Positions 2,560-20,393 of a DNA stretch of 20,393 nt are shown piece by piece. The notes beneath the pieces were generated by a model that worked only from the letters and a program-made list of their open reading frames with translations, did no database searches and was not told where the DNA came from. The DNA is from a virus (lineage: Duplodnaviria > Heunggongvirae > Uroviricota > Caudoviricetes), in the IMG/VR virus record IMGVR_UViG_2609459790_000003. One strand, written 5' to 3'. The first letter of the stretch is position 1. Each line of letters starts with the position of its first letter. Both the position numbers and the translations under genes were made by a program.

Positions 2560-2608
2560 GCACAAAGCCAGATTGTCACTATGCTTAATCTAAAGCAGAG
2601 GAGCCTCT

Positions 2609-3698: not shown

Positions 3699-3825
3699 AT
3701 AAAGCGGATATGCGCGTACTGTAACGGCCCCATCAACTGGGAGCGGATTTGAAATCCCGCCCCGAATGTGTAGGCAATGTCACTTAACGTTTGTCGCATA
3801 CCTTCCAGAAAAAGCGATTCATGAA

Positions 3826-3857
3826 TAATAGGGGCATGAATGCCCGGCGTACCGGGC
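3826..3857 (-). terminator. candidate terminator downstream of the lipoprotein gene
   Basis: Overlapping short GC hairpins GGGCA-TGAA-TGCCC and CCCGG-CGTA-CCGGG just 3' of the lipoprotein stop on the minus strand, followed by a U-rich tract. Confidence 0.3.
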
Positions 3858-3864
3858 TTATTAG

Positions 3865-4563: not shown

Positions 4564-4713
4564 GACAATCTCACCTAAGAATTGCGTGGTTATAAATTAT
4601 CATCACTGTAAGCGAATGTAAGCCACAGGCTCGTAATGTGATATGGAATTTTTATAGTTGGCTCAATATCAGTATGCCGTCCTTGGCTATTATGGTTTTG
4701 TTAGTTAGAGCGT

Positions 4714-7440: not shown

Positions 7441-8750
7441 CCCTTAAGTTTTGCCTGATAGTAACTTTCCGGCAGATAGCCATGTGCGGTCACATAATCC
7501 TTAACCAGTGAAGGATCCTGCAACAGCATTTTGGTATCAGTTTCTTCGTCCTTTGATTTGGTTACAGGAATACCGAGCCCGGCAATCTGTCGTTTCTGCA
7601 TTCGAATAATTACGTCCTGCGCTTTATTCAACTCTCGCAAAAATGCCTCATTGCTGGTTGCTGACTTAATGCCATTTTGAGATTGCATAAGGGCAGCCCT
7701 TTCCCCTTCGGTTGGGTTAGAGCCAAAAGTCCCTTTGAGGCTAGGCAGAATAACCTTTAGGTTGTATTCATCAGCTTTGGCGCGTAGGCTTCGTGTGTCT
7801 TCTGCTACATCAGGAAGGAATCCAAACCCCAGCGTCAGGGGGTTATAGTTCTGCGAGCGGGTAACGGCCGAAGGATGTTTCCCTACAATTCCCGCCAGTT
7901 CATGACCCACTTCAAGCGCAGAGTTCAAGGAGTCGATGTTACCTGTAACAGTATTAATTTTATCGTTCATCTTCTCCACTTTCGCCTGCTGTACCTTGCT
8001 CAGTTCAGCATTGAGCTTGTCTCTCTCGATGTCATTTTGAGCACGTCCAAGTCGTGCTTTCAGAACCATTTCTCTCGTGCGTAGTTGGTTATCGGATAGG
8101 ACTTTGAACTGCTCCATATCGAGACGCCGATTACCCTGTTCCGCATTAACCTGAGCATTATATGCAGATGTATCTGCGTTCTGCTGTGCAATGCTCTGCC
8201 CTTGCTGCTTCTCTTGAACACTAAAGTAACTATTTGGATCAGCATGGAGGTGGATGAGGTCAGTGATTCTGTTGAATTCCTGTGGGTCATTCTGCCAAGA
8301 CTGATAAACCTCTTCAGCAGGAAGACCAAATCGCTGTAATACTGGATTTGCCTGCTGAATGGCCTTCTGCATGGTCAGTGGATCTCCAGTTTGTGACGCA
8401 AGACGCAGATTCATGGCAGCGTCAGCGGTCTGTCGATTTTGCTCAGCATCAATGAATCCCATCTGTTTTTGAGAATCAGCCATAAACTGGGGATACTGGG
8501 CCATTAACTTCTGCACGCCAACACGATCATTATTAGCTACCGCACTACCCAACCGTGCCTGATATTCTTTTAGCTGCTGGGAAATTTGCGCCTGCTGATT
8601 AATCTCAGCAACGCCTCTTAGCCCCTGTAGCGCCATTAAACCTACGTTTGGCTGCTGCTGATACTGCACAGGCTGAGGAACGGAAGAACGAGGAGCATTA
8701 TCATTTTGCGGTGCCATGCTAGGCAGCCCGCCAAGTTGCCATGTCGTCAT
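7431..8750 (-). CDS. 439-aa Gln-rich coiled-coil protein
   Basis: ATG at 8748-8750 overlaps the upstream stop (TAATG); Q-rich helical composition; no catalytic motif seen. Confidence 0.85.
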   Translation of the reverse strand: MTTWQLGGLPSMAPQNDNAPRSSVPQPVQYQQQPNVGLMALQGLRGVAEINQQAQISQQLKEYQARLGSAVANNDRVGVQKLMAQYPQFMADSQKQMGFIDAEQNRQTADAAMNLRLASQTGDPLTMQKAIQQANPVLQRFGLPAEEVYQSWQNDPQEFNRITDLIHLHADPNSYFSVQEKQQGQSIAQQNADTSAYNAQVNAEQGNRRLDMEQFKVLSDNQLRTREMVLKARLGRAQNDIERDKLNAELSKVQQAKVEKMNDKINTVTGNIDSLNSALEVGHELAGIVGKHPSAVTRSQNYNPLTLGFGFLPDVAEDTRSLRAKADEYNLKVILPSLKGTFGSNPTEGERAALMQSQNGIKSATSNEAFLRELNKAQDVIIRMQKRQIAGLGIPVTKSKDEETDTKMLLQDPSLVKDYVTAHGYLPESYYQAKLKGWQ

Positions 8751-9427
8751 TAGAATCCAAGCCCCCCAACAAGACCAATAAGCCCACCACCAATAGCCCC
8801 GGCGACATTACCTATACCCGGAACAACGGAACCAAGTTGCGCACCCGCTAAAGCGCCTGATGCCGCCCCACCAATACCACGCGCAAGACTGGATGGCTGC
8901 TGCGCCTGACCTGCACGAATAGCGCCAAGCCCCTGCAAGAGTTGTCCGGTATTATTGGCGTAGTTTTGCCCTGCTGTTGCCTGCCCTGATGCCGCATTCA
9001 TCCCGACATTTAGCAGGTTTCCATAATTTTGCATTTGCCCACTAAGCCAATTGTTATAAAGCATGGGCGCAATGGAAGATAACTGGTTACTGGTAGCTGT
9101 TGAGCCAAGCCCCCCGGTAGCTTCTGCTGAGACAAGGTTCTGATAACGGGCCTGATCTGCCTGTGTTTTATATAAACCAGAACCAAAGAAATCATTCGCG
9201 GCTTTATTCTGCCCTTCCAGAGTCATCAGTCCTTGCAGTTGTTGTAAAGCAGGCAATCCGACTTCTGCATACGGCTTGAGATTATTCATCACCGTATTCC
9301 ACTGCTCGCGCTGCAAATCAATTGCCTGCTGCTGGGCCTTCGCCTGGGCTTTAGAGGCACCACCATCACCGCCTTTTTCGTATACGGCACGATTGAGATG
9401 TTTATGAGCTATATGGGTAATTAACAT
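8750..9427 (-). CDS. 225-aa protein with C-terminal glycine-zipper hydrophobic segment
   Basis: C-terminus GIGGAASGALAGAQLGSVVPGIGNVAGAIGGGLIGLVGGLGF; ATG overlaps the stop of the 153-aa gene. Confidence 0.85.
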   Translation of the reverse strand: MLITHIAHKHLNRAVYEKGGDGGASKAQAKAQQQAIDLQREQWNTVMNNLKPYAEVGLPALQQLQGLMTLEGQNKAANDFFGSGLYKTQADQARYQNLVSAEATGGLGSTATSNQLSSIAPMLYNNWLSGQMQNYGNLLNVGMNAASGQATAGQNYANNTGQLLQGLGAIRAGQAQQPSSLARGIGGAASGALAGAQLGSVVPGIGNVAGAIGGGLIGLVGGLGF

Positions 9428-9882
9428 TCGCTGAGTTCCTTATATTGTTGCCGTGTTAACTGATAAAGCGTTACGCCGACGGGTTTACCACATCTGATAT
9501 ATGCATCGGCCAGGTGACCAACACGGGTAGCGCCAAGCAAACGGATAATTGCCCGTCCGTATTTCGTGGTGTCAGGAACCATGGTGATGCTGTTAAGGAA
9601 TGGTGAGTTTTCGAGAAGCCATTTGCAGAACAATCGATGCCCTTGCAGTGCATATTCACCACGGAATCCGGGGTCGTACACCGCATGGCATTCAACAATG
9701 CTATGCCAGAAGTTACGCACTTCATGAACGCCTGTCAGCACTAATCCTTCGTAGATGCCGAGATATACCGCATCAGGCTTGATGTAGTACGTGTGCCCCG
9801 GCTCAACAATATTTTCGGTATTGCCAGGCTCGTTAAGAAAGGCCTGTAATCGCACCGGGTTATCAATAAATTTTAGTTCCAT
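9421..9882 (-). CDS. 153-aa protein, first large gene of the module
   Basis: ATG at 9880-9882, 16 nt after the stop of the small upstream ORF; compact globular composition; no motif recognised. Confidence 0.8.
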   Translation of the reverse strand: MELKFIDNPVRLQAFLNEPGNTENIVEPGHTYYIKPDAVYLGIYEGLVLTGVHEVRNFWHSIVECHAVYDPGFRGEYALQGHRLFCKWLLENSPFLNSITMVPDTTKYGRAIIRLLGATRVGHLADAYIRCGKPVGVTLYQLTRQQYKELSEC

Positions 9883-9898
9883 GCGGTGCCATCCGTTT

Positions 9899-10060
9899 TC
9901 ACATACAGCCTGCCAGCGCCTTATCTATTAACCCTCGTGCAATTTCATGCAGAGTTGGCGCTACTCCAATTCCTGATTTTTTACGCTGCTCTTCCTGAAT
10001 TTTCTTTATCGCTTCCATTTGCTTCTCACTTATCAATACCGGCTTTACTGAAATAGCCAT
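9899..10060 (-). CDS. 53-aa putative ribbon-helix-helix DNA-binding protein
   Basis: Below the ORF-track length cutoff. ATG at 10058-10060 with AAGGGGG 5 nt upstream; MAISVKPVLISEKQMEAIKKIQEEQRKKSGIGVAPTLHEIARGLIDKALAGCM has a strand, helix, G-x-T, helix layout. Confidence 0.45.
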   Translation of the reverse strand: MAISVKPVLISEKQMEAIKKIQEEQRKKSGIGVAPTLHEIARGLIDKALAGCM

Positions 10061-10075
10061 AACGCCCCCTTAGAA

Positions 10076-10099
10076 CTGTATAAAACAACAGTTATTATA
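10076..10099 (-). promoter_or_regulatory. candidate promoter (-10 TATAAT) with overlapping LexA-like box
   Basis: Minus-strand TATAAT at 10094-10099; immediately downstream lies aaCTGTataaaacaACAGtt (10074-10093), CTGT-N8-ACAG, closely resembling the dinD box. No good -35 hexamer. Confidence 0.4.
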
Positions 10100-10154
10100 G
10101 TTTCGCAAATCGCAATATTCATCATCGTAATTGCAAAATATGAAACAAATAGCA

Positions 10155-10188
10155 CAAAAAAATGCCACCGCTCAGTAGCTGGTGGCAT
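10155..10188 (-). terminator. rho-independent terminator closing the primase operon
   Basis: On the minus strand AUGCCACC / GGUGGCAU form an 8-bp stem with an 11-nt loop, followed by UUUUUUU. Confidence 0.5.
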
Positions 10189-10381
10189 CGTTCTGTGTGT
10201 CAGGTTTTGACAGGTTTTTTATGGACTCTAAAAACTATATTTATGGTGTCGCATTACTCTTCACGGCAGGCGCTTTTCAGTTCTGCCCTTGCTTCTGGCT
10301 CCATTGGTAATTTGATTCGCGATCAGCTATGCGGATGGTTTGCTGAACAGGCATAACAACTTCTCAGGGGCTGTTTTCTGA

Positions 10382-10458
10382 ACTACGAAAATTTCGTAGT
10401 GCTCACTTTCAAAAACGTCACGCCCTTGTACACAGGATTTTACGAAAGTCTCGTAAAA
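10382..10458. promoter_or_regulatory. two palindromes sharing a TACGAAA half-site
   Basis: ACTACGAAAATTTCGTAGT (10382-10400) and TTTTACGAAAGTCTCGTAAAA (10438-10458), between the terminator and iteron array B. Confidence 0.3.
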
Positions 10459-10508
10459 CACTCTCTGATGCCAGCCAGGTGTTGTGCGCATCAATTCAGT
10501 CACATTGT

Positions 10509-10620
10509 GTTGGTTCAAAATACCGTGTTGTTGGTTCAGTGTTGGTTCAATAAAAAGAATAAAATCATTATAAAACAATACTCTTTACAAATTGAACCAA
10601 CTGAACCAACTGAACCAACA
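10509..10620. repeat. iteron array B: six copies of GTTGGTTCA / TGAACCAAC
   Basis: GTTGGTTCA at 10509, 10530 and 10541, then three tandem TGAACCAAC at 10593-10619. Inverted copy of array A; lies 25 bp beyond the primase stop codon. Confidence 0.85.
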
Positions 10621-10644
10621 CCTTTTCTACGCACATGAAGAAGC

Positions 10645-13404
10645 TCATTCTTCAGATGAGTTATAATCTCCTGGCTGGTAATTGAGTACATAAACGTTTA
10701 TTTGTCGTCCCTGAATACGTGGTGATTTTCTTTGGTATCCACGACCGCTGTTTGGTGGGGTTAGCATCCCGGCTTTTTTCAACACTTCAGCAAACTGTTT
10801 TGCGTTGAAACCACATGCGATCTCCTTTTCAAATGTGGCCGGGAATGTGTAGAAAATCATTGGGCTTTCGTCATGTTCTCCACGCTGACGGTATCCGGCT
10901 AAATCTTTGATGGGCAAATCTGCCGGGCTGTATGGAAATGGTGCAAAACGGCTAAGCCCATAGGCATTAAGAAATGCCTCCGTTTGTTCAATAATCTGCT
11001 GATGTTCTTTGTTACCTGTGCCGAACTCGCGCAACCATGCGTTATAGCTGTGCTGTATCGCATCACGGCATGTCTGAGCATCCCAGCCTGTTACAACCTC
11101 GCCTAACAGCAATGCGGCCTCCAGAATGGCAAATCGCGCGGCTACACGGTGAACCTGCTCACCATAATCGGATGGGATCAGACTTCTCCATCTGCTTTCG
11201 CAGTCACGAACAGTTTTAATTGCCTGTTGCTGGTGGTCTGCCAGCCATTTAATCCACTCACGCCCGGCTGCGCCGTGGTGATGCTGGTAAGCGTCTTTCA
11301 GTGCGTCTGCGTGCTGTTTTCCGTTCTGGTAATCGTGAAAGCGTACTGCTTTACTCAACGGAATATTCAGCAGTCGCACCAGTTGCCCGGCTTTGGTTTT
11401 TCGCCCGGAAGTAGCGATAAATGTTTCTAAATCCATTTCTCCGGTGCTGATTGCCACTGTACGCCAGCGTTTTAGATCCCGGTTTCCACCATCTTTAGCG
11501 CCTTGCAGTTTCCCTACACCGTTAAATAACGCATAGGCAGACTGTGAAACGCTGACAGGATCTGCGCCCTGACCAACTTCATCAAGCGGCATTAGTCCGT
11601 CATTGTGGGCGGCAGCTTCATTTGCCAGCCCCAGCGCGGTTCCGTACCACGTCAGCCGCAGTAAATCAGGGTTGCCGTATAAGCTGCTCGCCACGTTTGC
11701 CGTGGTGGTCTTACCTGCGCTCGACTGCTCATAGAAATGAATGCCGAACCCGTCAGCGCCCACCAGCCCAATCAATGGCGCTGCCAGTGCTGCGCCGATC
11801 CCGGTCATCATTGAATAGTTACCAAAGGCCAGACGCGCCACGCTATCACGCCAGCTTTTCGCGCTCCCTGAGATAGTATATCCGGCTGCGGCTGAGCTTC
11901 TCCCGCTGAACAGCACAGGATTTTCAGGTGTTCCGATGATTTCCCCATCAGGCATGATGTACGCTCCGCATTGCCAGCCAGTGGCATGAGCAACACGCCA
12001 CAATTCACGAGAGCCACTGCGTTGTAGCCAGTCTGCCAGTATTGCTCTGAGGCTGCTTTTGGTCGTGACATTTACCCCACCAGCTTTAAGTGTGCGCCAT
12101 CCTTCACGTTCACCAATATCAGCCAGTGGAATGGCAGCGGTTGTCGGCGTTTCAGAACCAAACGACAGCCAGCGAAGAATGAGATACTGGTCTTTATCGT
12201 CTCTGCCAGTACCGATAACGCTTAACGGAGAACATAACCAGCTTTCGTTATTGATGATTTCTCCACTCTGGCTGTCAGCTCTCGGAGATACCCAATAAAT
12301 ACCATCCTCGCGGCTTTCTATTCTTGGTTTCAGTGGGTCGGTATCCATAACCTTAAAATCGCTTCCTTCAATGGTCTGTGGCTCCTGTTTCACGCCATTA
12401 CCCTGTGGTTGGTACATTGATTTATTGAACGCTTCTGTAGCGCATTTAATGCCGTGTTTTTGGTGGTAATCATTCCAGTCGGCTTTGTGATCTGTCGGGG
12501 GTAATGCCACCCATCCAGAAACAGATAAAGCTGCTTTTTCTGCTGCTATTCTCCCCGTGTTTTGTCTTCCTTCGCTGTGGTCGTTATCCGCAGCAATGAT
12601 GATTTGTGCTGAAGGAAATTTATCCCGCAGTACCTGGGCGACATATAACAGGTTCCCGGCATCAATCGCCGCCACTGTCAGCGCCTCTGGACGAATTAAA
12701 TGGGCAGATAATGCCGTTGCCAGCCCTTCTGCGATTAAGATGCTCTGTGTTGTTTCTGGTGCGTTTATGGCGTGATATGCCCCTCGCTTTGCTGAACCTG
12801 TCAGGAGTCTTTTTTCACCATGTGAGGTAATAGTCTGTGCTGCTGTTACTGCGCCGGATTTATCCACCAGCGCCAGCAACAGAGATCCATCGGGCAACAC
12901 GGGGAATGTAAAATCACCTACCCCTTTCGCAACCAGATAATCAGATTTGCCGTTTACAGCCTTTCTGCGCATGTCATCAAACTGACGGGAAAACGTATCC
13001 CGTCTTTGTTGTTCGTCCTTCTCTGCCCTTTTCAGGCGCTCCTGTTCGCGTCGCTGGCGCTCGGTTTCCAGTTGTTCCCGTTTCTGGCTGGTGGCTTCTG
13101 GTGTTTCCGTTGTCCGGTAATCAATACCCAGAACATCAGCGGCAAGAAGCGCCGCCTCTGTTGTGTCGCAGTTATTTACGCGTTTAATTAAATCCAGCCC
13201 ATCACCAGCGCCGCACTGATTACAGATGAAGCTACCGCGCCCGTTGTCATCGAACCGGAATCGATCTTTACCCCCACATGCAGGGCAGGGAGCATGACGG
13301 CGTGGAGAGTCAGGGACATTTATGTTCAGGCAGCCCAGCACATGAGGCCAGTTGTTTTCAGACGCACTGATAACCTGACGGATAAGATCAATGTTTCGCA
13401 TCAC
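10645..13404 (-). CDS. bifunctional DNA primase / SF3-type helicase (P4 alpha-like)
   Basis: N-terminal zinc ribbon CPACGGKDRF...CNQCG, central primase region, C-terminal P-loop (SSAGKTT). The track start at 13404 is GTG; the ATG is the next codon (13399-13401). Confidence 0.9.
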   Translation of the reverse strand: MMRNIDLIRQVISASENNWPHVLGCLNINVPDSPRRHAPCPACGGKDRFRFDDNGRGSFICNQCGAGDGLDLIKRVNNCDTTEAALLAADVLGIDYRTTETPEATSQKREQLETERQRREQERLKRAEKDEQQRRDTFSRQFDDMRRKAVNGKSDYLVAKGVGDFTFPVLPDGSLLLALVDKSGAVTAAQTITSHGEKRLLTGSAKRGAYHAINAPETTQSILIAEGLATALSAHLIRPEALTVAAIDAGNLLYVAQVLRDKFPSAQIIIAADNDHSEGRQNTGRIAAEKAALSVSGWVALPPTDHKADWNDYHQKHGIKCATEAFNKSMYQPQGNGVKQEPQTIEGSDFKVMDTDPLKPRIESREDGIYWVSPRADSQSGEIINNESWLCSPLSVIGTGRDDKDQYLILRWLSFGSETPTTAAIPLADIGEREGWRTLKAGGVNVTTKSSLRAILADWLQRSGSRELWRVAHATGWQCGAYIMPDGEIIGTPENPVLFSGRSSAAAGYTISGSAKSWRDSVARLAFGNYSMMTGIGAALAAPLIGLVGADGFGIHFYEQSSAGKTTTANVASSLYGNPDLLRLTWYGTALGLANEAAAHNDGLMPLDEVGQGADPVSVSQSAYALFNGVGKLQGAKDGGNRDLKRWRTVAISTGEMDLETFIATSGRKTKAGQLVRLLNIPLSKAVRFHDYQNGKQHADALKDAYQHHHGAAGREWIKWLADHQQQAIKTVRDCESRWRSLIPSDYGEQVHRVAARFAILEAALLLGEVVTGWDAQTCRDAIQHSYNAWLREFGTGNKEHQQIIEQTEAFLNAYGLSRFAPFPYSPADLPIKDLAGYRQRGEHDESPMIFYTFPATFEKEIACGFNAKQFAEVLKKAGMLTPPNSGRGYQRKSPRIQGRQINVYVLNYQPGDYNSSEE

Positions 13405-13759
13405 CGTACCCCACGTGGTCTATAGCGTTTGCGATATGGCTAACCAGCATCTGCCACTTGGTTATTCCGTAATCAGTCAGCATGCCATCATTGTTTAGCC
13501 ACATATCAAATTCAGCGGTTGTCGCAAGTTTCCACTTATCGCCGTGGACAGTCCTCATTGCTGGGTACATGAATGCGCAAATCAGATCACAAACATCTGA
13601 CGGCTTCAGAGATGTAGTAATGGTGCGTCCCTCTGGCGTCTGAATTGCCATTTTCTCTTCACCAGTAGAATGAAGGTTATGAATCCACACAGCACCAGCA
13701 ATCTTTGCCACCTGCTCTCCGATTGCGGAGCTAAGTGCCATTTCTGCATTTTCACGCAT
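13388..13759 (-). CDS. hypothetical protein (123 aa)
   Basis: GGAGG Shine-Dalgarno 6 nt upstream of the ATG; stop overlaps the primase start; ATG overlaps the upstream stop. Confidence 0.7.
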   Translation of the reverse strand: MRENAEMALSSAIGEQVAKIAGAVWIHNLHSTGEEKMAIQTPEGRTITTSLKPSDVCDLICAFMYPAMRTVHGDKWKLATTAEFDMWLNNDGMLTDYGITKWQMLVSHIANAIDHVGYGDAKH

Positions 13760-14093
13760 GAGAACCTCCCGCTACAGTTGCGCCCATGTCATTAACCATG
13801 CTTTGCCATATCTCACGCCCGACGTCAGTCAATCCGTCCTTAGTGACGCAACGATCAAGAAGCTCGATCCCCACGGTTTCCCACTGCGGGTAGAACACTT
13901 TCATGGCTGCCAGTGTGTAGCTATCGATCAGGCTGCGAACGCCTTTTACTCCATTGACGATTTCCACACGGACGGCCTCGCCGTCCGCATCAACCATGAA
14001 ATAGTCCCCGCCGCTGGTGGAGGTAATGTGGTTATACAGTGCCGACGCATACTTATTTGCCAGCGCATTCAGTCGGAAATTTTTAGTAATCAT
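13752..14093 (-). CDS. hypothetical protein (113 aa)
   Basis: GAGGA Shine-Dalgarno 7 nt upstream of the ATG at 14091-14093; follows the 200-aa gene after a 10-nt gap. Confidence 0.7.
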   Translation of the reverse strand: MITKNFRLNALANKYASALYNHITSTSGGDYFMVDADGEAVRVEIVNGVKGVRSLIDSYTLAAMKVFYPQWETVGIELLDRCVTKDGLTDVGREIWQSMVNDMGATVAGGSHA

Positions 14094-14103
14094 GGTTCCA
14101 TCC

Positions 14104-14706
14104 TCAGTGCGTCACTGGTTCCGCTGGCATGCCGTTTTCATTCAGTTCAGCTATAAAGCTGTTGTGAAGTTCAGCAAGCGTTTCACGACCAAATGGAGTC
14201 AGTGCTCCTTGTTCCACATCCATCATGGCTCTGTAGAAAATGATGGCGCGTTCTGTGCCAGACTCGATGCCAAAACGTTCTATCATCGCGCCCTCAATGT
14301 TGTTTGCCATAGCGAGGCGCTCTGCTACTGGATACAGCGGCATGGCGACGATGCCGTTGGAATAAACAGCCACTTCGGAAGGATTGCCAGTATCATCAAT
14401 GATGCTGACAGTGCCGTTTTCCTCTCTCATTTCCAGCATGAATACTGTTGCGATCAGCCATCTCCACATAATGACGTTATGCTGTGATGTGTAATCGAAA
14501 TATCCCTGGTTGCCGCCATCGGCTATAGCGAGATGTATTGACATACCTTCATCTGGTTTATCGTCATAATCCCCGGCATCCAGACGATTTACGGCATCAA
14601 TATATGAGACGGCCTCAACGCGTTCTGTCATGCCATCGTTGCTGCGGTACATGATGTTTACGCCGTCAGGCGTTGCTTCTGCATGGAAAGTTAAGAAATT
14701 ATTCAT
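14104..14706 (-). CDS. hypothetical protein (200 aa)
   Basis: Track ORF extends to 14811; the ATG at 14704-14706 (MNNFLTF...) overlaps the upstream TAA in an ATGAATAA junction and is the more likely start. Confidence 0.7.
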   Translation of the reverse strand: MNNFLTFHAEATPDGVNIMYRSNDGMTERVEAVSYIDAVNRLDAGDYDDKPDEGMSIHLAIADGGNQGYFDYTSQHNVIMWRWLIATVFMLEMREENGTVSIIDDTGNPSEVAVYSNGIVAMPLYPVAERLAMANNIEGAMIERFGIESGTERAIIFYRAMMDVEQGALTPFGRETLAELHNSFIAELNENGMPAEPVTH

Positions 14707-14920
14707 GTTTCGCCTCGCCTGAATGATTCTGTAACTCATATTTGCCCAACAATTCGTCCGCTTCCTGAATAGCTTCTGGTACGCCATTGAGCAGTGACAT
14801 AACCGCGCCAATCATTAATTTGTCTCTGTTGCTGGGGCTGGCCCCTTCAAGCCAGAACCCTAAAACAGTCTGAACCTGTTCGATGCGACATTGCGCTTCA
14901 ATGAGCTGGATGTTGGTCAT
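14699..14920 (-). CDS. hypothetical small protein (73 aa)
   Basis: ATG overlaps the upstream stop (ATGA); acidic helical composition. Confidence 0.65.
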   Translation of the reverse strand: MTNIQLIEAQCRIEQVQTVLGFWLEGASPSNRDKLMIGAVMSLLNGVPEAIQEADELLGKYELQNHSGEAKHE

Positions 14921-15180
14921 TTCGCACTCTCCGCATCGATTAAACTGATATCTATCAGAGAGGTAACTTTTTGTAGCCAGCTAGTGATTACTGTCGCCTG
15001 TTCCCCTCCCACCGATGGAAGAATCTCATTCATCACATGAACCAGACCTGTGCGCGCTCTGGTAAGCCGTTCAGTCGTGCGATCTGCAAGAGTGAATGTG
15101 TCTGGATATGGCTCTTCACGCCCCAGCAATGATTCAATTTCCAGCTCACACGGATGACGATAAATTAAGTTGATATTCAT
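14917..15180 (-). CDS. hypothetical small protein (87 aa)
   Basis: ATGA start/stop overlap with the upstream gene. Confidence 0.65.
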   Translation of the reverse strand: MNINLIYRHPCELEIESLLGREEPYPDTFTLADRTTERLTRARTGLVHVMNEILPSVGGEQATVITSWLQKVTSLIDISLIDAESAK

Positions 15181-15371
15181 TTTTCACCCCCAAGAATTAC
15201 CAGCTCGGCACGGGCATCGTTAACCAAAGATGAGCACGCTTTAATCGCATCCACGACATCAGCAGCGTCCATTTCTTCAGCCGAAAGACTGACAGCAACC
15301 AGGACAGCCGCTGCTTGCTCGATTAATTGAAGTGCGGACGTAAGTCGAGGGGCATTAATTGAGTTATTCAT
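15177..15371 (-). CDS. hypothetical small protein (64 aa)
   Basis: Track ORF starts at 15428; the ATG at 15369-15371 ([10 protein letters not shown]...) overlaps the upstream TAA in an ATGAATAA junction. Confidence 0.6.
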   Translation of the reverse strand: MNNSINAPRLTSALQLIEQAAAVLVAVSLSAEEMDAADVVDAIKACSSLVNDARAELVILGGEK

Positions 15372-15582
15372 TGGTTGCCCCCGTTTTTCCTGGCATTTCG
15401 CCACCTTCCAGCAGGAAATGAACGTCACGAACGGCGAGATCCAATATCGCGAGTAACGCCTTCAGTTTTTCGTCTCGTGAGGGAGAGTTGCTCACCAGAA
15501 TGTCATTAATCACTTCTGTCAGTGTGATGATCTGGCTTGTACGTTCGAGGGGATCCATATGCACATCGTAGGTTTTAATCAT
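15364..15582 (-). CDS. hypothetical small protein (72 aa), alternative reading of the 3' end of the long ORF
   Basis: ATG at 15580-15582 with GGAGG 7 nt upstream, overlapping the TAA of the alternate-frame 64-aa ORF (ATGATTAA). It is in frame with the 355-codon ORF, so it may instead be that ORF's C-terminus. Confidence 0.45.
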   Translation of the reverse strand: MIKTYDVHMDPLERTSQIITLTEVINDILVSNSPSRDEKLKALLAILDLAVRDVHFLLEGGEMPGKTGATNE

Positions 15583-16431
15583 GTGCCACCTCCATGCGGA
15601 TACGACCAGCAAAAAAGCAGACGTGATCGCGCACCAGAGAACGGCGAGCATCGCGTTCAGACTCGGCAGCAATATGATGAATTTTGGCGGTAATTGTCGG
15701 GCAATCGCGGCGAACTGCGGCGATAATCCAGATAAATTGCGGTTTTTGGGTAGGGGTAGTAGCCAGCATGTGGCAGCCTCCTTGTACTGGGAATTCTTCC
15801 CACCACCGGAGCTGCGAAACTCGCTGGTGGTGGACTGAACAGAGTTCGCAGTACCGGCGTACAAGGAAACCGGCCAGCCTTTCGGCTGCCCTGTCCAGCC
15901 CACCATAATTTTGCAAGCGACGCGGATTATAACCACATCACTGAAAAAAGTGTGAGTCTGGCTAACGGCACAAAAAAAGACGCTCGGCGCGTCATGTGTC
16001 GCCTCGTACATTTCCGGGCTGCGAAACCCGGCACCCGTTTTATGAGGTGCCTTATAACCATAAACCGTGTTGCCGCATAACGACAAGCTCTTTTTTATGG
16101 ACTCCGAAAACTCACTATTGGAAGCACCAGATGCACAATACATCGCGCTCATTTCGTTAACGTCGCGCGTGTGGACGAAGGTTTTTGTGGAGCCACTACG
16201 CGAGCAGAGAAAGCCATCTACGACCAGAAATTCTCTGGCGCAGCCGCTGACCCTCTCAACGCTAACACCATCGACCGTAATTTCTGACATAGTTAAGGCA
16301 TCCGCTCCTACCACCAGCAAATGATAAACTTTGCTTGCATCTGCTGTATTAATGCCTGATTTTGCTGTCATATTGCTGGATTTTGGCGACATACCAGTCA
16401 GTGAAAATATCTTCTTCTGGGCGGTTAGCAT
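15364..16431 (-). CDS. hypothetical protein; 355-codon open frame, true 3' end uncertain
   Basis: ATG at 16429-16431 with GGAGG 7 nt upstream. Both other minus-strand frames are closed by stops between 16431 and about 15940, so this frame is coding there. It stays open to 15364, but beyond about 15770 the composition suggests nested small genes or a frameshift. Confidence 0.35.
15575..15769 (-). CDS. hypothetical small protein (64 aa) in alternate frame
   Basis: ATG at 15767-15769 with AAGGAGG 7 nt upstream; protein-like composition ([22 protein letters not shown]...), whereas the long ORF's frame over the same bases is L/S/P/W-rich. Confidence 0.4.
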   Translation of the reverse strand: MLATTPTQKPQFIWIIAAVRRDCPTITAKIHHIAAESERDARRSLVRDHVCFFAGRIRMEVAHD

Positions 16432-16607
16432 TTGTTAACCTCCGCGAACTCCTTCGTGAAACGTGCCAGCGGTTGTACGCATGGCGATTGATACCCGTCG
16501 CGATAAAACGTCACTCGGTTGTGAGACACGCTTTCGACAGTAACGAGTGCTCCGTGGGCATCTTTGTAGCGTTTTTGAGGTTGTGGTGTTCCTGTCGGCT
16601 TAAACAT
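16425..16607 (-). CDS. small conserved prophage-type protein (60 aa)
   Basis: Track ORF starts at 16694; the ATG at 16605-16607 (MFKPTGTPQPQKRYKD...) has GGAGG 6 nt upstream and overlaps the antirepressor stop (ATGTTTAA). Family assignment uncertain. Confidence 0.55.
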   Translation of the reverse strand: MFKPTGTPQPQKRYKDAHGALVTVESVSHNRVTFYRDGYQSPCVQPLARFTKEFAEVNKC

Positions 16608-17433
16608 GGACCGCCTCCAGACGCTTAGCGAGCCAGCGTTGCGACAGGCGGGTGAGTTCTCCTTTGCGCTGCTCATATTCCATGCCCATATCAATTAACG
16701 TGATATTGGTGCTTTCGAGATATGAGAGGTGCTCAAGCTGTTCTGCGTTCATATGGTCGCGAGGTTCGCCAGAATAGCCATTTATCCGCGCCCACTGCTT
16801 AGCAGTTAGCCCACCAAGAACGATACGAGAAATCATATTGCTCTCGTTTGTGTAGTGGTGTTGCTGCGTCGTTTTCCCCTGCTCGGCACGGGCCATATTC
16901 AGCGCATCGCACATTGGCTTAAAGTTGTTTGCGGCACTGATACGGGCTTTTAGCTGGCGACGATAGCGGGCGGCGATTTCAGGCACGCTACGCTGTAATT
17001 CTTCCTCGCACTGGATGAAATAACGACGGATAGCGCGACCCTGATCATTGCGTTCGATCATTGCCAGTTCTTTCGCCATTCCGACACTTAACAGATAGTC
17101 TTTGCCGGGTCTGCCAGACGGCTTAATCTTGCTGTAAGCCGCGCCATTCGGGCTTTTCCCCAAATTTGGGGAAATTGTTTTATGGACTGAGTAATCGTGC
17201 CCAATGGTGAAGTCATATTCAGAGATGCGATCAGTGATCCATGTAGAGAAGTCTTTTCCCACGCCCAACGCTTTGTGTAACGCTTTTGCGCTAACAATAT
17301 TGGTTTCACGCCCACCGATGTGACCAGGAATAACCGGGACAATTGCGGCAAATTCATTACCGTTAATGGTGCCCAGAGAGGCGTTCAGATGAGGGGCGGC
17401 CTCAGAAATTAATCTGCTTTTTTCGATGTTCAT
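16600..17433 (-). CDS. AntA/AntB-type antirepressor family protein
   Basis: N-terminus AAIVPVIPGHIGGRETNIVSAKALHKALGVGKDFSTWITDRISEYDFTIGHDY matches the AntA-domain pattern; GGAG Shine-Dalgarno 8 nt upstream of the ATG. Confidence 0.8.
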   Translation of the reverse strand: MNIEKSRLISEAAPHLNASLGTINGNEFAAIVPVIPGHIGGRETNIVSAKALHKALGVGKDFSTWITDRISEYDFTIGHDYSVHKTISPNLGKSPNGAAYSKIKPSGRPGKDYLLSVGMAKELAMIERNDQGRAIRRYFIQCEEELQRSVPEIAARYRRQLKARISAANNFKPMCDALNMARAEQGKTTQQHHYTNESNMISRIVLGGLTAKQWARINGYSGEPRDHMNAEQLEHLSYLESTNITLIDMGMEYEQRKGELTRLSQRWLAKRLEAVHV

Positions 17434-17445
17434 TTTCAGTCTCCG

Positions 17446-17877
17446 TTAGGCGGCGTTAAACGCGTCCGGGTAGAGTTTCAGAATGTCGGCAATTTCCTGC
17501 TGAGAAAGTCCGTTGTGATCATTTATGTTCGCAAGATGGTTAATATGAGTGATCACTTTCAGAACATCACCGCGGCAGGAGAAACGGTAGCGAAGGTGTG
17601 TTCCGATACCATCAGGATTCTTTTCGTCGATACGCTCCAGAGTGATTCCAAGCTGGCGTTCTAACTCTGTTGCATAGTTACGACCAGAAGACAGACGGCA
17701 GTAGCGAAGAATGTCATTTTCTGTCCATCCCTCTATACCAGTACGCAGCATATAGACTCTGGCACGATGCTTTTTCGGTGTGCGCTTTGGTGCTTGAAGG
17801 GATTTTGTAAGGGGCGTAACATCAGATACGCGAATATCTGAATTAGCCGCCTGTAATGGGCGGTTTTTCTTTTCCAT
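17446..17877 (-). CDS. hypothetical protein with basic N-terminus (143 aa)
   Basis: ATG overlaps the AlpA-like stop (ATGA); no domain recognised. Confidence 0.75.
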   Translation of the reverse strand: MEKKNRPLQAANSDIRVSDVTPLTKSLQAPKRTPKKHRARVYMLRTGIEGWTENDILRYCRLSSGRNYATELERQLGITLERIDEKNPDGIGTHLRYRFSCRGDVLKVITHINHLANINDHNGLSQQEIADILKLYPDAFNAA

Positions 17878-18080
17878 CAGGCTACCTTCCCGCGGCGTTC
17901 TGCCAGCCAGTTGTGAATCTCAACCGCATCAAACGCAGTTATTTTTTCTCCCAACTTTACCGGACGTGGTAGTGAACCGTTTCTTACTTTACGGTCGATA
18001 GTGGATACACTAACGCCCAGCAATTCAGCCAGGCGAAAGCGTCTGATATAGCCTTTTGTAGGAATCGTGTCGGTGTTCAT
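17877..18080 (-). CDS. AlpA/excisionase-like HTH regulator
   Basis: RLAELLGVSVSTIDRKVRNGSLPRPVKLGEK...EIHNWL matches the HTH pattern of AlpA/Xis-type proteins; first gene of the leftward operon, adjacent to the integrase region. Confidence 0.8.
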   Translation of the reverse strand: MNTDTIPTKGYIRRFRLAELLGVSVSTIDRKVRNGSLPRPVKLGEKITAFDAVEIHNWLAERRGKVA

Positions 18081-18192
18081 GCTTCCCGTAACCTCTTAGC
18101 GATAGTTGTTGCTTCGTTACGGGTATTTAATGGTGTGCATGCTCAAAAGTGAATTACAGTAAATTTTATTGTCACGATACTAAATTTTATTA
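18081..18192 (-). promoter_or_regulatory. putative promoter/operator and 5' leader of the AlpA-led operon
   Basis: 8-bp inverted repeat CCCGTAAC / GTTACGGG (18085-18123) enclosing the AAGAGG ribosome-binding site, plus two direct TAAATTTTATT repeats (18159-18169 and 18181-18191). Promoter hexamers not resolved. Confidence 0.3.
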
Positions 18193-19038
18193 TCATGATT
18201 TCTTCTTTCCTGCCGTGGTACGTTTTTCCGGCAATCTGTCCATGTCAGATATGATCTTCTTTAAATAATCTGTAGATGGTTCATCATAATCGCCACCCAC
18301 ATGTGGCCAGTGGTCTATCGTAGCGTTTGCCCACGCTTCGTTGGTTTCTTTCCCGTTTTTCCCTTTGCACTCTTCAGGATAGTGCCGTTTCACATAAATC
18401 AACGCCATAATGCTATTCTCACGGTTCAGGCTATGTCGTGCTCTATTTCCATGCTCTATGTTTTTAAATTCCTTTTCATAAAGATCGTGTGAACCCAAAT
18501 GGAGTATGCTGGGTATTGGCTGATTTTTATCCATGCTTTCAGCTATATATTCAACCCACGGTCTTGATATATACAAATCTTCCACAGACGATACGGTGGT
18601 ATCATGTTCGCGATAATCGTAGAAAAAGTAACGTCCTGATGTGATATCTAGTTCTTTTTTTATATATGCTGGTGAGAATATGAGTGGAATGTCAGGGGCT
18701 CTCTTAACCCCTGCAAGGGAAGCAATGAAATCACTAGGAACGTGCCATAACCCACTTGCTAAGCACTTCATACCATCGAAAACACCTTCATTTAGATATC
18801 TTTCGGTATCTTCTCTAGTAGAAATAATAGAACCAAATAATAAGTTTTCTATGTCTTTGCTGCCGTGGTCTGGTGGCAAGTTTCTCGCTTGATAGAGTAC
18901 GCCTTCATACTGGTGAATTATTGTGCTCAAAAATATAGAGCCTGATACTCCCATAAGTAGAAGATCATCGACTTCTATTTCTAATAAATTTGCTGCTCTA
19001 TTAAGTCGGAAAAAGAGATTTGGTGGTAGTTTTTTCAT
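18193..19038 (-). CDS. AT-rich orphan cargo protein (281 aa), function unknown
   Basis: Long clean ORF, about 40% GC against GC-richer flanks, no recognisable domain; sits between the integrase and AlpA-like genes. Confidence 0.85.
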   Translation of the reverse strand: MKKLPPNLFFRLNRAANLLEIEVDDLLLMGVSGSIFLSTIIHQYEGVLYQARNLPPDHGSKDIENLLFGSIISTREDTERYLNEGVFDGMKCLASGLWHVPSDFIASLAGVKRAPDIPLIFSPAYIKKELDITSGRYFFYDYREHDTTVSSVEDLYISRPWVEYIAESMDKNQPIPSILHLGSHDLYEKEFKNIEHGNRARHSLNRENSIMALIYVKRHYPEECKGKNGKETNEAWANATIDHWPHVGGDYDEPSTDYLKKIISDMDRLPEKRTTAGKKKS

Positions 19039-19133
19039 TGCGTCACCTTTTACGCTGCGCCTTATTTTGTGATTGAGCCAGGCGGTAAGGCTTCCCGCTT
19101 TTCGCCCCGTCGAGCTAGGCTCAATCTATTCAG

Positions 19134-20393
19134 TTAGTTCGCCCTTCTGAGAGGCGTTACGTTGTAGTCTTTTCCGCTTTCCAGCGCCACCAGCAGATCA
19201 GCCCACTGTGCCAGTGCTGCTTTACGCTCATCAAAATACTGATGGCGGTTATAAATCCCCTCTACGCCCTTAATGCGATGATTGAGGCATCGTTCCGCCA
19301 CAACAGGATCAACACCCAACGCTGCTAAATGAGTCCGTGCGGTGCGTCGGAAATCGTGAATCGTGAAATTAGGCACATCCGGCATTTCGGCGCGAACCTT
19401 AGCCAGTGCTACGGGTAAAGTGCTTTCCTGAATATGTGGGATCATTCTGTTTTGCATCTTCCTGGCCGGAAGCACCCATGCGCTATTACATGAAAAGGTG
19501 TGTAGCTCTCTCAACCATTCAACGGCTGGGGAAGGTAGAGGTATATCAATAGGGTCTCCGTTTTTGCTGCGTTCTTCCGGCAAATGCCATACCGCACCAT
19601 CTAAATCAAACTCTTCCCATCGTGCGGCACATAACTCCATCTTACGAACGCATAGTGCCAGCAATAGCTTAAATGTCAGTTCGTTCTGGCGGCTGAATCC
19701 TTTTGCGGTGCGCATAGCCTCGAATAGCCTGATAAGCTCATCGCGAGTTAGCCAACGGTCGCGGGAAACCTCTTTACCACCAGCATCAGATATTTCAAAC
19801 GCTGAACAAGGGTTTATCTCCAGAGCGTGGCGTTTTATCCCATAGTCAAAGATACGGCGTGTCCAGCGTAATACATCTGTTGCTATCGTTGGTGCTCCTC
19901 GGTCAACGATACCTTTCAACATGTCGTCAATGTGGCGTGGCTTAACGTCCTCTACCTTCATATACCCAATGCAGGGGTTAATATCCTTATCAATTCTCCG
20001 GCGAAGGATATCGGGATGTTTCCATCTCGGAAGTATCTGGCGCTCGAAGTATTCGGCGGCCAGATCTGAAACGCGTATGGCGTTTTTCTCAGCCTCCATT
20101 TTTGCCAGTGCTTCTGCTTTTCGTTCCTGTTTCTCTGCTGCTACATCATAGCCAAGGGCAACTCTGGCTGACAGCTCTTTTGCTGTTTCTCTGGCTTTTG
20201 ATAGTGACAGTTCGGAGTAAGAGCCGATAACCATAGCCCGCTGTTTTCCTGCGAGCTTATATCGGAATCGCCAGAACGGGACTGTGTAGTTTTTGGGGTA
20301 GCAAATATAAAGGCCGTTGCCGTCTGCCTTGCCATCAAATCTGTCTCCCGCCTTTATCCATGCGCGGATCTGCATATCTGTGAGTTTTGGCAT
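19134..20393 (-). CDS. P4-type tyrosine integrase
   Basis: N-terminal arm-binding pattern (MPKLTDMQIRAW...GLYICYP...WRFRYKLAGKQR), C-terminal catalytic residues (HDFRRTARTHL, HxxR, GIYNRHQY). The ATG is the last three bases of the window, so the upstream att region is not visible. Confidence 0.93.
   Translation of the reverse strand: MPKLTDMQIRAWIKAGDRFDGKADGNGLYICYPKNYTVPFWRFRYKLAGKQRAMVIGSYSELSLSKARETAKELSARVALGYDVAAEKQERKAEALAKMEAEKNAIRVSDLAAEYFERQILPRWKHPDILRRRIDKDINPCIGYMKVEDVKPRHIDDMLKGIVDRGAPTIATDVLRWTRRIFDYGIKRHALEINPCSAFEISDAGGKEVSRDRWLTRDELIRLFEAMRTAKGFSRQNELTFKLLLALCVRKMELCAARWEEFDLDGAVWHLPEERSKNGDPIDIPLPSPAVEWLRELHTFSCNSAWVLPARKMQNRMIPHIQESTLPVALAKVRAEMPDVPNFTIHDFRRTARTHLAALGVDPVVAERCLNHRIKGVEGIYNRHQYFDERKAALAQWADLLVALESGKDYNVTPLRRAN

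What the first reader, a model, noticed from the sequence alone, without database searches (positions are those of the whole stretch)
18193..19038. AT-rich orphan gene between integrase and AlpA-like regulator
A single 281-aa gene with GC content well below its flanks and no recognisable domain occupies the integrase-proximal slot, where P4-like and other integrative elements commonly carry variable anti-phage or fitness cargo. It is a candidate single-gene defence or abortive-infection factor.
Basis: inference. Interest (0 to 1): 0.55.

Follow-up and report, generated by a model that had tools for sequence, protein, structure and literature searches.

The report
Swappable integrase-adjacent gene of a phage satellite
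The AT-rich "orphan" is a real gene from a widespread, unnamed family that sits between the integrase and AlpA genes of phage satellites and is swapped like a cassette, so it is more likely part of the satellite's induction and excision switch than a stand-alone anti-phage defence gene.

Summary
There is a 281-aa ORF at 18193..19038 (-), 39.7% GC against about 49-50% in the flanks. It lies between a tyrosine integrase and an AlpA gene and matches nothing in Pfam, PHROGs, NCBIfam or PADLOC.

The island is an EcCIMP1-type PICI. At this E. coli site at least five alleles alternate between 98-99% identical int and alpA genes. Three are very divergent members of this family. The cassette includes about 70 bp carrying paired 19-nt repeats upstream of alpA.

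Most likely (0.42) it is a DNA-binding specificity or regulatory part of the AlpA switch. A defence role is neither supported nor excluded (0.2). No mechanism was tested.

The parts
18193..19038 (-). Gene X: 281-aa integrase-adjacent protein, the finding itself
   Evidence: ORF. RefSeq CDS WP_021538547.1. Family of 172 clusters. AlphaFold model with mean pLDDT 85.
18889..19038 (-). N-terminal winged-helix module, residues 1-50 (strand, two helices, beta-hairpin). This is the most widely shared part of the family; in relatives its signature is LPxLEYCxLxRAAxLLxCExxDLxHW.
18469..18888 (-). Middle beta-rich domain, residues 51-190. It is the fast-evolving part and keeps only GLW(H) and DLYISRxW.
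   Evidence: Alignments A1 and A2. 13 of 14 non-synonymous differences between the window and L007 fall in residues 42-190.
18196..18468 (-). C-terminal helical, basic domain, residues 191-281, pI 9.05. Motif HGNxxRHxxNRE...ALIY...YPEEC; R206 and E207 are nearly invariant.
   Evidence: No Pfam relative even at E<=5. No PDB or BFVD fold match.
18160..18199 (-). Two 19-nt direct repeats, 21 bp apart (ATCATGATAATAAAATTTA and ATCGTGACAATAAAATTTA). They overlap the stop codon of X and are a candidate protein-binding site that is inherited with X.
   Evidence: 17 of 19 positions match, and 0 of 200 shuffles reach this. Both copies are conserved across the A1 subfamily, although copy 1 is coding in the 312-aa homologues and non-coding here.
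18125..18153 (-). Putative alpA promoter, TTCACT-N17-TTAAAT. It was read by eye and lies inside the allele-specific part of the cassette.
   Evidence: Both hexamer positions are conserved in the A1 subfamily alignment while the spacer varies. The consensus scan did not call it, so this is inference.
18124..19033 (-). The exchanged cassette: X plus about 70 bp downstream
   Evidence: Homology to the L002, L003 and L006 islands stops at 19034 (19146 for L003) and resumes at 18123 or 18121. The window and L007 are 95-100% identical over about 18000-19050 but 65-85% outside it.
19059..19125 (-). int-alpA RNA motif (Rfam RF02996), in the 95-bp spacer between int and X
   Evidence: 60.6 bits against a gathering score of 35.8. 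It was found in all six scanned loci that have a spacer of about 95 nt or more, and in none of those scanned where X abuts or overlaps int. The outer stem covaries between alleles.
18085..18123 (-). Conserved hairpin or inverted repeat CCCGTAAC-N22-GTTACGGG around the alpA ribosome-binding site
   Evidence: The RNA folds at -13.6 kcal/mol, z -3.09. L005 carries a compensatory change (AGTAAC / GTTACT).
19134..20393 (-). Tyrosine integrase, first gene of the integration module
   Evidence: Adjacent to yicC in strain 214-4.
17877..18080 (-). alpA, AlpA-family regulator/excisionase, last gene of the integration module
   Evidence: AlpA is the master activator in EcCIMP1 and EcCICFT073 (PMC11773190, PMC6092414).

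Best explanation
X is a real, expressed-looking gene. It belongs to a widespread family that no database names. The family sits between int and alpA in the integration module of AlpA-type Gram-negative phage satellites, the position called iolg/icg in PICMI satellites.

Shown here:
- The N-terminal domain is a MerR/Xis/AlpA-type winged helix.
- The middle domain evolves fast and the C-terminal domain is conserved.
- The gene is position-locked next to int and alpA. In some homologues it overlaps the end of int by 4 nt.
- It is exchanged as a cassette together with about 70 bp that carries two 19-nt repeats 21 bp apart.

Inferred:
- A weak promoter for alpA lies in those 70 bp, just downstream of the repeats.
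- X is made together with Int.
- It binds through its winged helix to the paired repeats just upstream of the alpA promoter.
- Through its variable middle domain it couples alpA expression, and so excision, to an allele-specific cue, most plausibly a helper-phage protein.
- The alleles would then set the induction or immunity specificity of the satellite. This resembles the immunity cassettes of lambdoid phages, or the Stl alleles of SaPIs.

Whether X acts as an activator or a repressor is not determined. The PICMI115 deletion phenotype points to a positive role.
For: Family and fold:
- 9 close and 172 distant clusters.

Position lock:
- int->X->alpA on one strand in Leclercia, Enterobacter, a distant VapE-type island, a Klebsiella plasmid, Aeromonas, Zobellella, Salinivibrio, Enterovibrio, Grimontia and Enterobacterales fis-site islands.
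- 31 of 50 int->alpA pairs carry the N-terminal module.
- The 38%-identical homologue P0006 overlaps int by 4 nt.

Cassette behaviour:
- Different alleles sit between 98-99% identical int and alpA genes.
- The same allele (97.9% nt identity) sits between int genes that are 81% identical (dS 1.75 for int against 0.023 for X).
- Replacements concentrate in the middle domain (13 non-synonymous, 2 synonymous).

Cis elements:
- The paired repeats are conserved at DNA level across 37-56% identical homologues whether they are coding or not.
- The best repeat pair is spaced 19-21 bp in 14 of 31 X-alpA spacers, and the repeat sequence differs between alleles.
- The L002 and L003 islands have alpA genes about 98% identical to the window's but lack these repeats. 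So the repeats travel with X, not with alpA.

Literature:
- The PICMI115 iolg deletion abolishes excision, packaging and transduction, and int and iolg are constitutive while alpA is phage-induced (PMC10803314).
- Gram-negative PICIs have no known master repressor, and the route by which the helper induces alpA is unknown (PMC6092414).
Against: - No binding, expression or genetic test was possible. DNA binding to the repeats is inference.
- EcCIMP1 shares 98.9% identity with this island over 16 kb, yet it has a different int-alpA module with no X. It is still induced, excised and transduced (PMC11773190). X is therefore not required by this backbone in general.
- The L002 and L003 alleles have a terminator-like hairpin instead of paired repeats.
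- Sequence homology to the PICMI115 iolg protein was not tested, and that deletion was complemented only with int and iolg together.
- The island also carries a P4-like C4/isrK RNA immunity system, which could cover repression without X.
- The middle-domain dN/dS of about 1.7 rests on 15 changes and is not significant.
Confidence: 0.42

Rival explanations
1. X is a single-gene anti-phage defence or abortive-infection factor carried as variable cargo in an integrase-proximal hotspot. The variable middle domain would sense a phage component, and the conserved C-terminal domain would be an unrecognised effector.
For: - The slot is polymorphic between conserved flanks, and all alleles are AT-rich.
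- The cassette moves between backbones, and replacements cluster in one domain.
- EcCIMP1 lacks X and is still a working satellite, so X is dispensable for that backbone.
- EcCIMP1-type islands give an unexplained superinfection immunity (PMC11773190).
Against: - No PADLOC hit for X, for the nine other slot proteins tested, or for 61 family members, apart from scattered single hits.
- No recognisable effector domain and no membrane segment (best 19-residue Kyte-Doolittle mean 1.63).
- Every homologue examined is locked between int and alpA. None was found in phage records, and the only full-length plasmid hit examined lies next to alpA beside a broken integrase. Portable defence genes normally also turn up in other contexts.
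- Several homologues are translationally coupled to int.
- The cassette carries conserved paired repeats next to the alpA promoter.
- Reported PICI defence loci lie between att and int, next to pri, or at the 3' end.
- The EcCIMP1 immunity cannot be due to X, because EcCIMP1 has no X.
Confidence: 0.2
2. X is a structural cofactor of site-specific recombination. As proposed for the PICMI iolg protein, it would form the excisive complex together with Int and AlpA, and would have no sensing or transcriptional role.
For: - Deletion of iolg in PICMI115 abolishes excision, and the authors propose an excision complex of Int, the iolg protein and AlpA (PMC10803314).
- The N-terminal fold is that of Xis/AlpA excisionases.
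- There is 4-nt overlap or a gap of only 3-10 nt with int in many homologues.
- X belongs to the int-alpA module, which is swapped as a whole relative to EcCIMP1.
Against: - A cofactor that contacts Int and att DNA should co-evolve with them. Instead, very different X alleles sit with 98-99% identical int genes, and the same allele sits with an int only 81% identical.
- The only conserved X-linked repeats lie next to alpA, on the far side of X and the whole int gene from the yicC-side end of the island where an att site would be expected.
- EcCIMP1, and a few int-alpA pairs with nothing between them, excise or exist without such a gene.
Confidence: 0.15
3. X is a decaying or selfish passenger ORF with no present function.
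For: dN/dS is 0.93 between the window and L007 alleles. A truncated 186-aa form exists in Shigella (P0004).
Against: - The ORF is intact in 37 complete E. coli genomes.
- Full-length homologues at 37-56% identity occur across genera with 45 invariant columns.
- There are nearly invariant residues across 61 distant members.
- The structure is predicted with confidence.
- The position is conserved across three bacterial families.
Confidence: 0.04

Closest known systems
iolg / icg (integrase-overlapping or integrase-contiguous gene) of PICMI satellites in Vibrionaceae (Barcia-Cruz et al. 2024, PMC10803314)
   Same: - A single gene of unknown function between int and alpA on the same strand.
- It is present in most elements but falls into many unrelated or very divergent families (13 in PICMIs).
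- Close homologues of X overlap int by 4 nt exactly as iolg does (L143, L094-096, L108, L126, L140).
- Relatives carrying the N-terminal module occur in Vibrionaceae right after int (L018-L021).
   Different: - The window copy is separated from int by 95 bp holding the int-alpA RNA motif.
- The element is an about 19-kb EcCIMP1-type PICI at yicC with a TOPRIM/DUF927 primase. It is not a roughly 6-kb fis-site PICMI with a DUF3987 primase.
- Sequence homology to the PICMI115 iolg protein could not be tested, because no sequence is in the paper's supplements.
- The requirement for excision is known only for PICMI115.
AlpA / Xis / MerR-type winged-helix DNA-binding proteins (Pfam PF05930, PF12728; PDB 8c3t, 4j2n, 5gpe)
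   Different: - No Pfam model reaches threshold in any of 61 members; the single best hit is HTH_17 at E 0.005.
- X is four times longer than AlpA or Xis.
- It lacks the MerR dimerisation helix and effector-domain architecture.
- The other 230 residues have no structural match in the PDB or BFVD.
Stl/Rpr master repressors of SaPIs and Gram-positive PICIs
   Same: - Encoded next to int.
- An N-terminal DNA-binding domain joined to a highly divergent body.
- Different alleles in otherwise similar islands.
- A plausible role as the island's receiver for a helper-phage protein.
   Different: - Stl is transcribed divergently from the genes it represses, whereas X is co-directional with int and alpA.
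- The helix-turn-helix type differs.
- No sequence or fold similarity was found.
- The only genetic datum for the positional class, PICMI115, indicates a positive role, not a repressive one.
Immunity cassettes of lambdoid phages (repressor plus operators exchanged between conserved flanks)
   Same: A regulator-like gene and its adjacent non-coding repeats are inherited as one block. They are swapped between nearly identical flanks and moved between diverged backbones.
   Different: No homology. Binding of X to the repeats is unproven, and two alleles (L002, L003) lack such repeats.
Variable defence hotspots of P4-like satellites and PICIs (Rousset 2022; Fillol-Salom 2022; Tai system, PMC11364771)
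   Same: A variable, AT-rich single-gene slot flanked by conserved satellite core genes.
   Different: - The described hotspots are elsewhere: psu-int/cos in P4, and att-int, next to pri, or the 3' end in PICIs.
- Their cargo is heterogeneous and also found outside satellites.
- Here most occupants belong to one or two position-locked families (the X family and DUF6387), and none matches a defence model.

Membership tests
iolg/icg positional class (PICMI, PMC10803314) | Gene lies between int and alpA on the same strand | tested here: met
   int 19134..20393, X 18193..19038 and alpA 17877..18080 are all on the minus strand.
iolg/icg positional class (PICMI, PMC10803314) | Start overlaps int by 1, 4 or 13 nt (iolg) or is contiguous with int (icg) | tested here: not met
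   The window copy starts 95 nt after the int stop, with the int-alpA RNA motif in between. Homologues do meet the feature: P0006 in L143 overlaps by 4 nt, L008-L011 have gaps of 4-10 nt, and there are nine further 4-nt overlaps among carriers of the N-terminal module.
iolg/icg positional class (PICMI, PMC10803314) | Host element is a PICMI (fis site, DUF3987/DUF5906 primase, Vibrionaceae, about six genes) | tested here: not met
   The island is about 19 kb, lies between dinD and yicC, and has a TOPRIM/DUF927 primase in E. coli.
iolg/icg positional class (PICMI, PMC10803314) | Sequence homology to one of the 13 iolg/icg families | not tested
iolg/icg positional class (PICMI, PMC10803314) | Required for helper-induced excision | not testable with these tools
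   Needs a deletion and complementation experiment.
MerR/Xis/AlpA winged-helix superfamily | Strand, two helices and a beta-hairpin, superposable on solved members | tested here: met
MerR/Xis/AlpA winged-helix superfamily | Pfam HTH_17, Phage_AlpA or MerR model above the gathering score | tested here: not met
   No hit for X. One of 61 family members hits HTH_17, at E 0.005.
Known or candidate anti-phage defence system | Match to a PADLOC model | tested here: not met
   No hit for X. There were no consistent hits among the nine other slot proteins tested or the 61 family members.
Known or candidate anti-phage defence system | Occupies a variable slot between conserved genes of a mobile element | tested here: met
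   Five alleles occur in 37, 76, 41, 21 and 111 of 5426 E. coli genomes, between conserved int and alpA genes.
Known or candidate anti-phage defence system | Protects against phage when expressed | not testable with these tools
   Needs a phage challenge.
   No such genes appear in the RefSeq annotation of the identical island. The island is 98.9% identical over 16 kb to the PICI EcCIMP1. It does share P4-like C4/isrK RNAs and an Ash-family ORF.
EcCIMP1-type PICI (the host element) | Backbone genes: PerC, ejection-protein cluster, DUF927 primase, Ash/C4, AntA | tested here: met
   Window 1853-17887 aligns with MP1 at 98.9% identity over 16057 bp, and several proteins have identical accessions. 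The int-X-alpA module differs: int is 29% identical, alpA 36%, and X is absent.
SaPI Stl-like master repressor | Divergent transcription from the operon it controls, and repression relieved by a helper-phage protein | tested here: not met
   X is co-directional with alpA. Relief by a phage protein cannot be tested here.

The most novel reading that the evidence does not exclude
X-family proteins are the missing helper-phage receivers of Gram-negative AlpA-type satellites. Each would be an allele-specific, winged-helix DNA-binding switch, made with the integrase and sitting on paired sites at the alpA promoter. Binding of a particular helper-phage protein to its fast-evolving middle domain would flip the switch. 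Cassette exchange of X would then re-target a satellite to new helpers. This would be the functional counterpart of SaPI Stl, built from an unrelated fold.
Probability: 0.2. Interest if true: 0.8.

Novelty: new member of a known kind. Interest (0 to 1): 0.5.

Why it matters
Two questions about Gram-negative phage satellites are open in the literature. How does the helper phage switch on alpA (PMC6092414, PMC10803314)? What does the gene between int and alpA do, given that its loss abolished excision in PICMI115?

This analysis links an E. coli PICI gene to that positional class. It gives the gene a domain model: a Xis/MerR-like winged helix, a fast-evolving domain and a conserved basic domain. 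It shows the gene behaves as an exchangeable cassette with its own promoter-proximal repeats. It also provides a natural allelic series in E. coli (37, 76, 41, 21 and 111 genomes) and a natural X-less sister element, EcCIMP1, that already has a working helper-phage system. Together these make the question directly testable.

If X turns out to be a defence gene instead, it would be a new single-gene system specific to satellites.

Tried and rejected
- Domain libraries: Pfam, PHROGs, NCBIfam and PADLOC on X gave nothing. Pfam on all 61 family members and on isolated C-terminal domains at E<=5 also gave nothing.
- Solved structures: PDB by sequence profile gave only a chance hit at E 0.049. Foldseek against the PDB and BFVD had nothing at E<=0.001. 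afdb50 was unavailable.
- The first AlphaFold run, with 9 sequences, was poor (pLDDT 62) and was replaced by the 61-sequence run.
- K-12 CP4-57 yfjH, which also lies between intA and alpA, is unrelated and on the opposite strand.
- L004 and L005 alleles: hhalign found no significant homology to the family.
- I thought all slot alleles might share a common C-terminal helix-loop-helix. hhalign gave probabilities below 10%, so I dropped the idea.
- The PADLOC PDC-S31 hit of the L002 allele (E 0.002) was not reproduced by any of 61 members, so I treat it as chance.
- Searches that returned little: the search for homologous proteins with alignments A2 and A5, and the search for related loci with A2, A3 and A1.
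- I could not obtain the PICMI115 iolg sequence. The fis-site scan of IMG/VR returned only loci with enterobacterial-type Fis.
- The Cell 2022 PICI immunity paper is not held.
- The sigma-70 consensus scan found no minus-strand promoter between X and alpA. The promoter I propose was read by eye from conservation.

Full report
1. Observation

The ORF 18193..19038 (-) starts with ATG and encodes 281 aa. Its GC is 0.397. Sliding windows over it read 0.38-0.42, against 0.49-0.51 over the integrase and 0.47-0.52 downstream. The upstream gene, 19134..20393 (-), has Arm-DNA-bind_3, Phage_int_M and Phage_integrase domains. The downstream gene, 17877..18080 (-), is Phage_AlpA. X matches nothing in Pfam, PHROGs, NCBIfam or PADLOC. 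The description is therefore correct.

2. Where the window comes from

The window is 100% identical to E. coli 214-4. There it is an island of about 19 kb between dinD and yicC. Window 1853-17887 is 98.9% identical over 16057 bp to EcCIMP1 of E. coli MP1.

EcCIMP1 is a PICI that has been characterised experimentally. It is mobilised by the P22-like phage Kapi1, and AlpA is its master activator (PMC11773190). The shared backbone comprises PerC, a P22-like ejection-protein cluster, a TOPRIM/DUF927 primase, the Ash region, DUF4222, AntA and a 143-aa protein.

Only the integration module differs. The integrases are 29% identical and the AlpA proteins 36%. EcCIMP1 has a 427-bp spacer with no X-like gene. 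X therefore belongs to the int-alpA module, and this backbone can work as a satellite with a module that lacks X.

3. X is not an orphan

The close search found 9 clusters at 37-99% identity in Escherichia/Shigella, Leclercia and Enterobacter, with 45 invariant columns. A profile search of 1.84 billion representatives found 172 clusters at E<=1e-3 and 52 at E<=1e-10. Almost all are 260-380 aa, and many match in two stretches, one N-terminal and one C-terminal.

With 61 sequences AlphaFold gave mean pLDDT 85. The model has three parts:
- Residues 9-51: a strand, two helices and a beta-hairpin.
- Residues about 52-190: a beta-rich middle.
- Residues 197-266: a helical C-terminal domain.

The family signature is LPxLEYCxLxRAAxLLxCExxDLxHW at the N-terminus and PHxxAERHAxNRExxLxAAIY...P(D/E)EC at the C-terminus. 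The window subfamily has a degenerate version of the first. The C-terminal domain is basic (pI 9.05), and the protein has no membrane-like segment.

4. The family is locked to one position

Every homologue whose neighbourhood I could read lies int->X->alpA on one strand:
- Leclercia (L008), Enterobacter at the same yicC site (L009-L011), and a distant member in a VapE-primase island (L012).
- A Klebsiella plasmid, next to a frameshifted integrase (L014).
- Aeromonadaceae, Aeromonas, Zobellella, Salinivibrio, Enterovibrio, Grimontia and a Vibrionaceae MAG (L015-L021).
- Three further close homologues (L142-L144).

I also scanned IMG/VR for the fis 3'-end repeat, which brought in Enterobacterales fis-site islands. 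In the pooled survey of 50 int->alpA pairs (not de-replicated):
- 31 carry the N-terminal module in the slot.
- Most of the rest carry DUF6387 or a 216-aa family.
- Two have nothing there.

Many of these slot genes overlap int by 4 nt, including the full-length 38% homologue P0006.

This is the gene class that Barcia-Cruz et al. named iolg/icg in PICMI satellites. They found 13 families, all of unknown function. In PICMI115 the iolg deletion abolishes excision, packaging and transduction. There int and iolg are constitutive and alpA is phage-induced (PMC10803314). I could not obtain the PICMI115 protein sequence, so homology to it is untested.

The N-terminal module is combined with at least two C-terminal types that are not detectably homologous.

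5. The slot is swapped

At the E. coli yicC site, int and alpA are 98-99% identical across the L002, L003 and L006 islands (about 91-98% for L004 and L005), yet the gene between them differs.

| Allele | Complete genomes (of 5426) | Relation to the X family |
|---|---|---|
| Window type | 37 | the family itself |
| L002 type | 76 | member, hhalign probability 100 at 17% identity |
| L003 type | 41 | member, N- and C-terminal HMMs positive, C-terminus 78% identical to L002 |
| L004 type | 21 | no detectable relation |
| L005 type | 111 | no detectable relation; overlaps int by 4 nt |

Homology to the L002 island stops at the X start codon (19034) and resumes 43 bp upstream of the alpA ATG (18123). 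The unit exchanged is therefore X plus about 70 bp.

The converse also occurs. Between the window and strain QDFD216 (L007), X is 97.9% identical (dS 0.023). In the same pair int is 81% identical (dS 1.75) and alpA 90% (dS 0.41). The identity profile shows a block of 95-100% over about 18000-19050 inside flanks of 65-85%. Of 14 non-synonymous differences, 13 lie in residues 42-190, against 2 synonymous ones. That is suggestive of diversifying selection but is not significant.

6. Non-coding elements inherited with X

Two 19-nt direct repeats, 21 bp apart, start at the last codons of X (18160-18199). They match at 17 of 19 positions, and 0 of 200 shuffles reach that. Both copies are conserved in all seven members of the close subfamily, whose proteins are only 37-56% identical. 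In the 312-aa homologues the first copy encodes the C-terminal DTK(N/K), while in the window it is the stop codon and untranslated DNA. The constraint is therefore on the DNA.

Just downstream, TTCACT-N17-TT(A/T)AAT keeps its position while the spacer varies. I read this as the alpA promoter, by eye. The consensus scan did not call it.

Islands with the L002 and L003 alleles have alpA genes about 98% identical to the window's, but they lack the repeats and carry terminator-like hairpins instead. The repeats therefore go with X, not with AlpA.

Across 31 X-alpA spacers, the best repeat pair is spaced 19-21 bp in 14. About 3 would be expected if spacings of 12-40 were equally likely. The pairs beat shuffles in the window, L017, L021, L130, L005 and L012, and the repeat sequences differ between alleles.

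7. Interpretation

The data favour a DNA-binding component of the satellite's integration and regulation module, with an allele-specific, fast-evolving surface. X appears to come as a unit with the DNA next to the alpA promoter. This is the logic of an immunity or specificity cassette.

My best reading (0.42) is as follows. X is co-expressed with Int and occupies the paired sites. It couples alpA expression, and hence excision, to an allele-specific cue, probably a helper-phage protein. The PICMI115 phenotype suggests the role is positive. The steps from 'binds the repeats' onward are inference.

Four things weigh against this reading:
- EcCIMP1 lacks X and still works.
- The L002 and L003 alleles lack the repeats.
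- The island already has a P4-like C4/isrK RNA immunity element.
- The PICMI deletion was complemented only with int and iolg together.

8. Rivals

Defence cargo (0.2) fits the polymorphism, the AT-richness and the mobility of the cassette. It does not fit several other findings. No slot allele or family member matches a defence model. There is no effector-like domain. The position lock is strict, and some homologues are translationally coupled to int. X also cannot explain the superinfection immunity of EcCIMP1, because EcCIMP1 lacks it.

A pure excision cofactor (0.15) fits the Xis-like fold and the PICMI genetics. It does not fit free reassortment of X against int, and the X-linked repeats lie next to alpA, on the far side of int from the island end.

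A functionless ORF (0.04) is contradicted by conservation across three bacterial families.

9. Verdict

The gene is a new, better-described member of the recently recognised but unexplained class of integrase-adjacent satellite genes. It is not a demonstrated defence system. Interest is moderate (0.5). It offers a tractable route to the open question of how helper phages induce Gram-negative satellites.

Noticed in passing
window 19059-19125 (-): This is the Rfam int-alpA RNA motif (RF02996, 60.6 bits). It lies between int and X, not directly before alpA. It was found in all six scanned loci with a spacer of about 95 nt or more (the window, L002, L004, L007, L142 and Aeromonadaceae L015). It was not found in the scanned loci where X abuts or overlaps int. 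The outer stem covaries (GATTGAGCC/GGCTCAATC against GACCGGAAC/GTTCCGGTC in L004). It may be a leader or insulator for the X-family gene.
   Followed up: partly
window 15823-15910 (-) and 15973-16050 (-): A C4 antisense RNA (81 bits) and an isrK RNA (69 bits) lie inside the 355-aa ORF 15364..16431 that RefSeq calls an 'ash family protein'. The island therefore carries a P4/P1-like RNA immunity element, and the long ORF call there may be partly spurious. The same pair occurs in EcCIMP1, L008, L009, L143 and L144.
   Followed up: partly
window 18085-18123 (-): A conserved inverted repeat, CCCGTAAC-N22-GTTACGGG, brackets the alpA Shine-Dalgarno sequence. As RNA it folds at -13.6 kcal/mol (z -3.09). 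L005 has a compensatory change (AGTAAC/GTTACT) and L009 a G-U pair. It could be a translational control hairpin or a palindromic operator shared by all alleles.
   Followed up: partly
window 1853-17887 against L145 (E. coli MP1, EcCIMP1): The backbone is 98.9% identical to EcCIMP1 over 16 kb. The int-alpA module, however, is replaced wholesale: int is 29% identical, alpA 36%, and the integration site is yicC/dinD instead of tRNA-Thr near proA. This is a clean example of integration-module swapping between satellites.
   Followed up: yes
window 4714-9882 (-): The satellite carries a lytic-transglycosylase protein (908 aa), a P22-type 'phage DNA ejection protein' (439 aa), a 225-aa protein and a DUF2824 protein. 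This is an ejection-protein cluster like that of its P22-like helper. In EcCIMP1 these genes were noted as candidates for packaging or morphogenesis.
   Followed up: no
L061, L068, L107, L111, L131 (IMG/VR fis-site islands), int-alpA slot: A second, unrelated family fills the same slot, usually overlapping int by 1 or 4 nt: Pfam DUF6387 (E 1e-28 to 1e-30). DUF6387 therefore appears to be another family of integrase-overlapping genes.
   Followed up: partly
window 1-837 (-): The chromosomal dinD gene (NCBIfam equivalog, E 5e-146) scores very strongly against the PADLOC candidate-defence model PDC-S13 (E 4.5e-120) and against part of a Type I specificity-subunit model.
   Followed up: no
L002 against L003, slot genes and the DNA downstream of them: The L002 and L003 alleles share a 78%-identical C-terminal 74 residues and a similar downstream region with a terminator-like hairpin. 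Their N-terminal and middle parts are unrelated in sequence. This implies recombination within the gene, shuffling domains.
   Followed up: no
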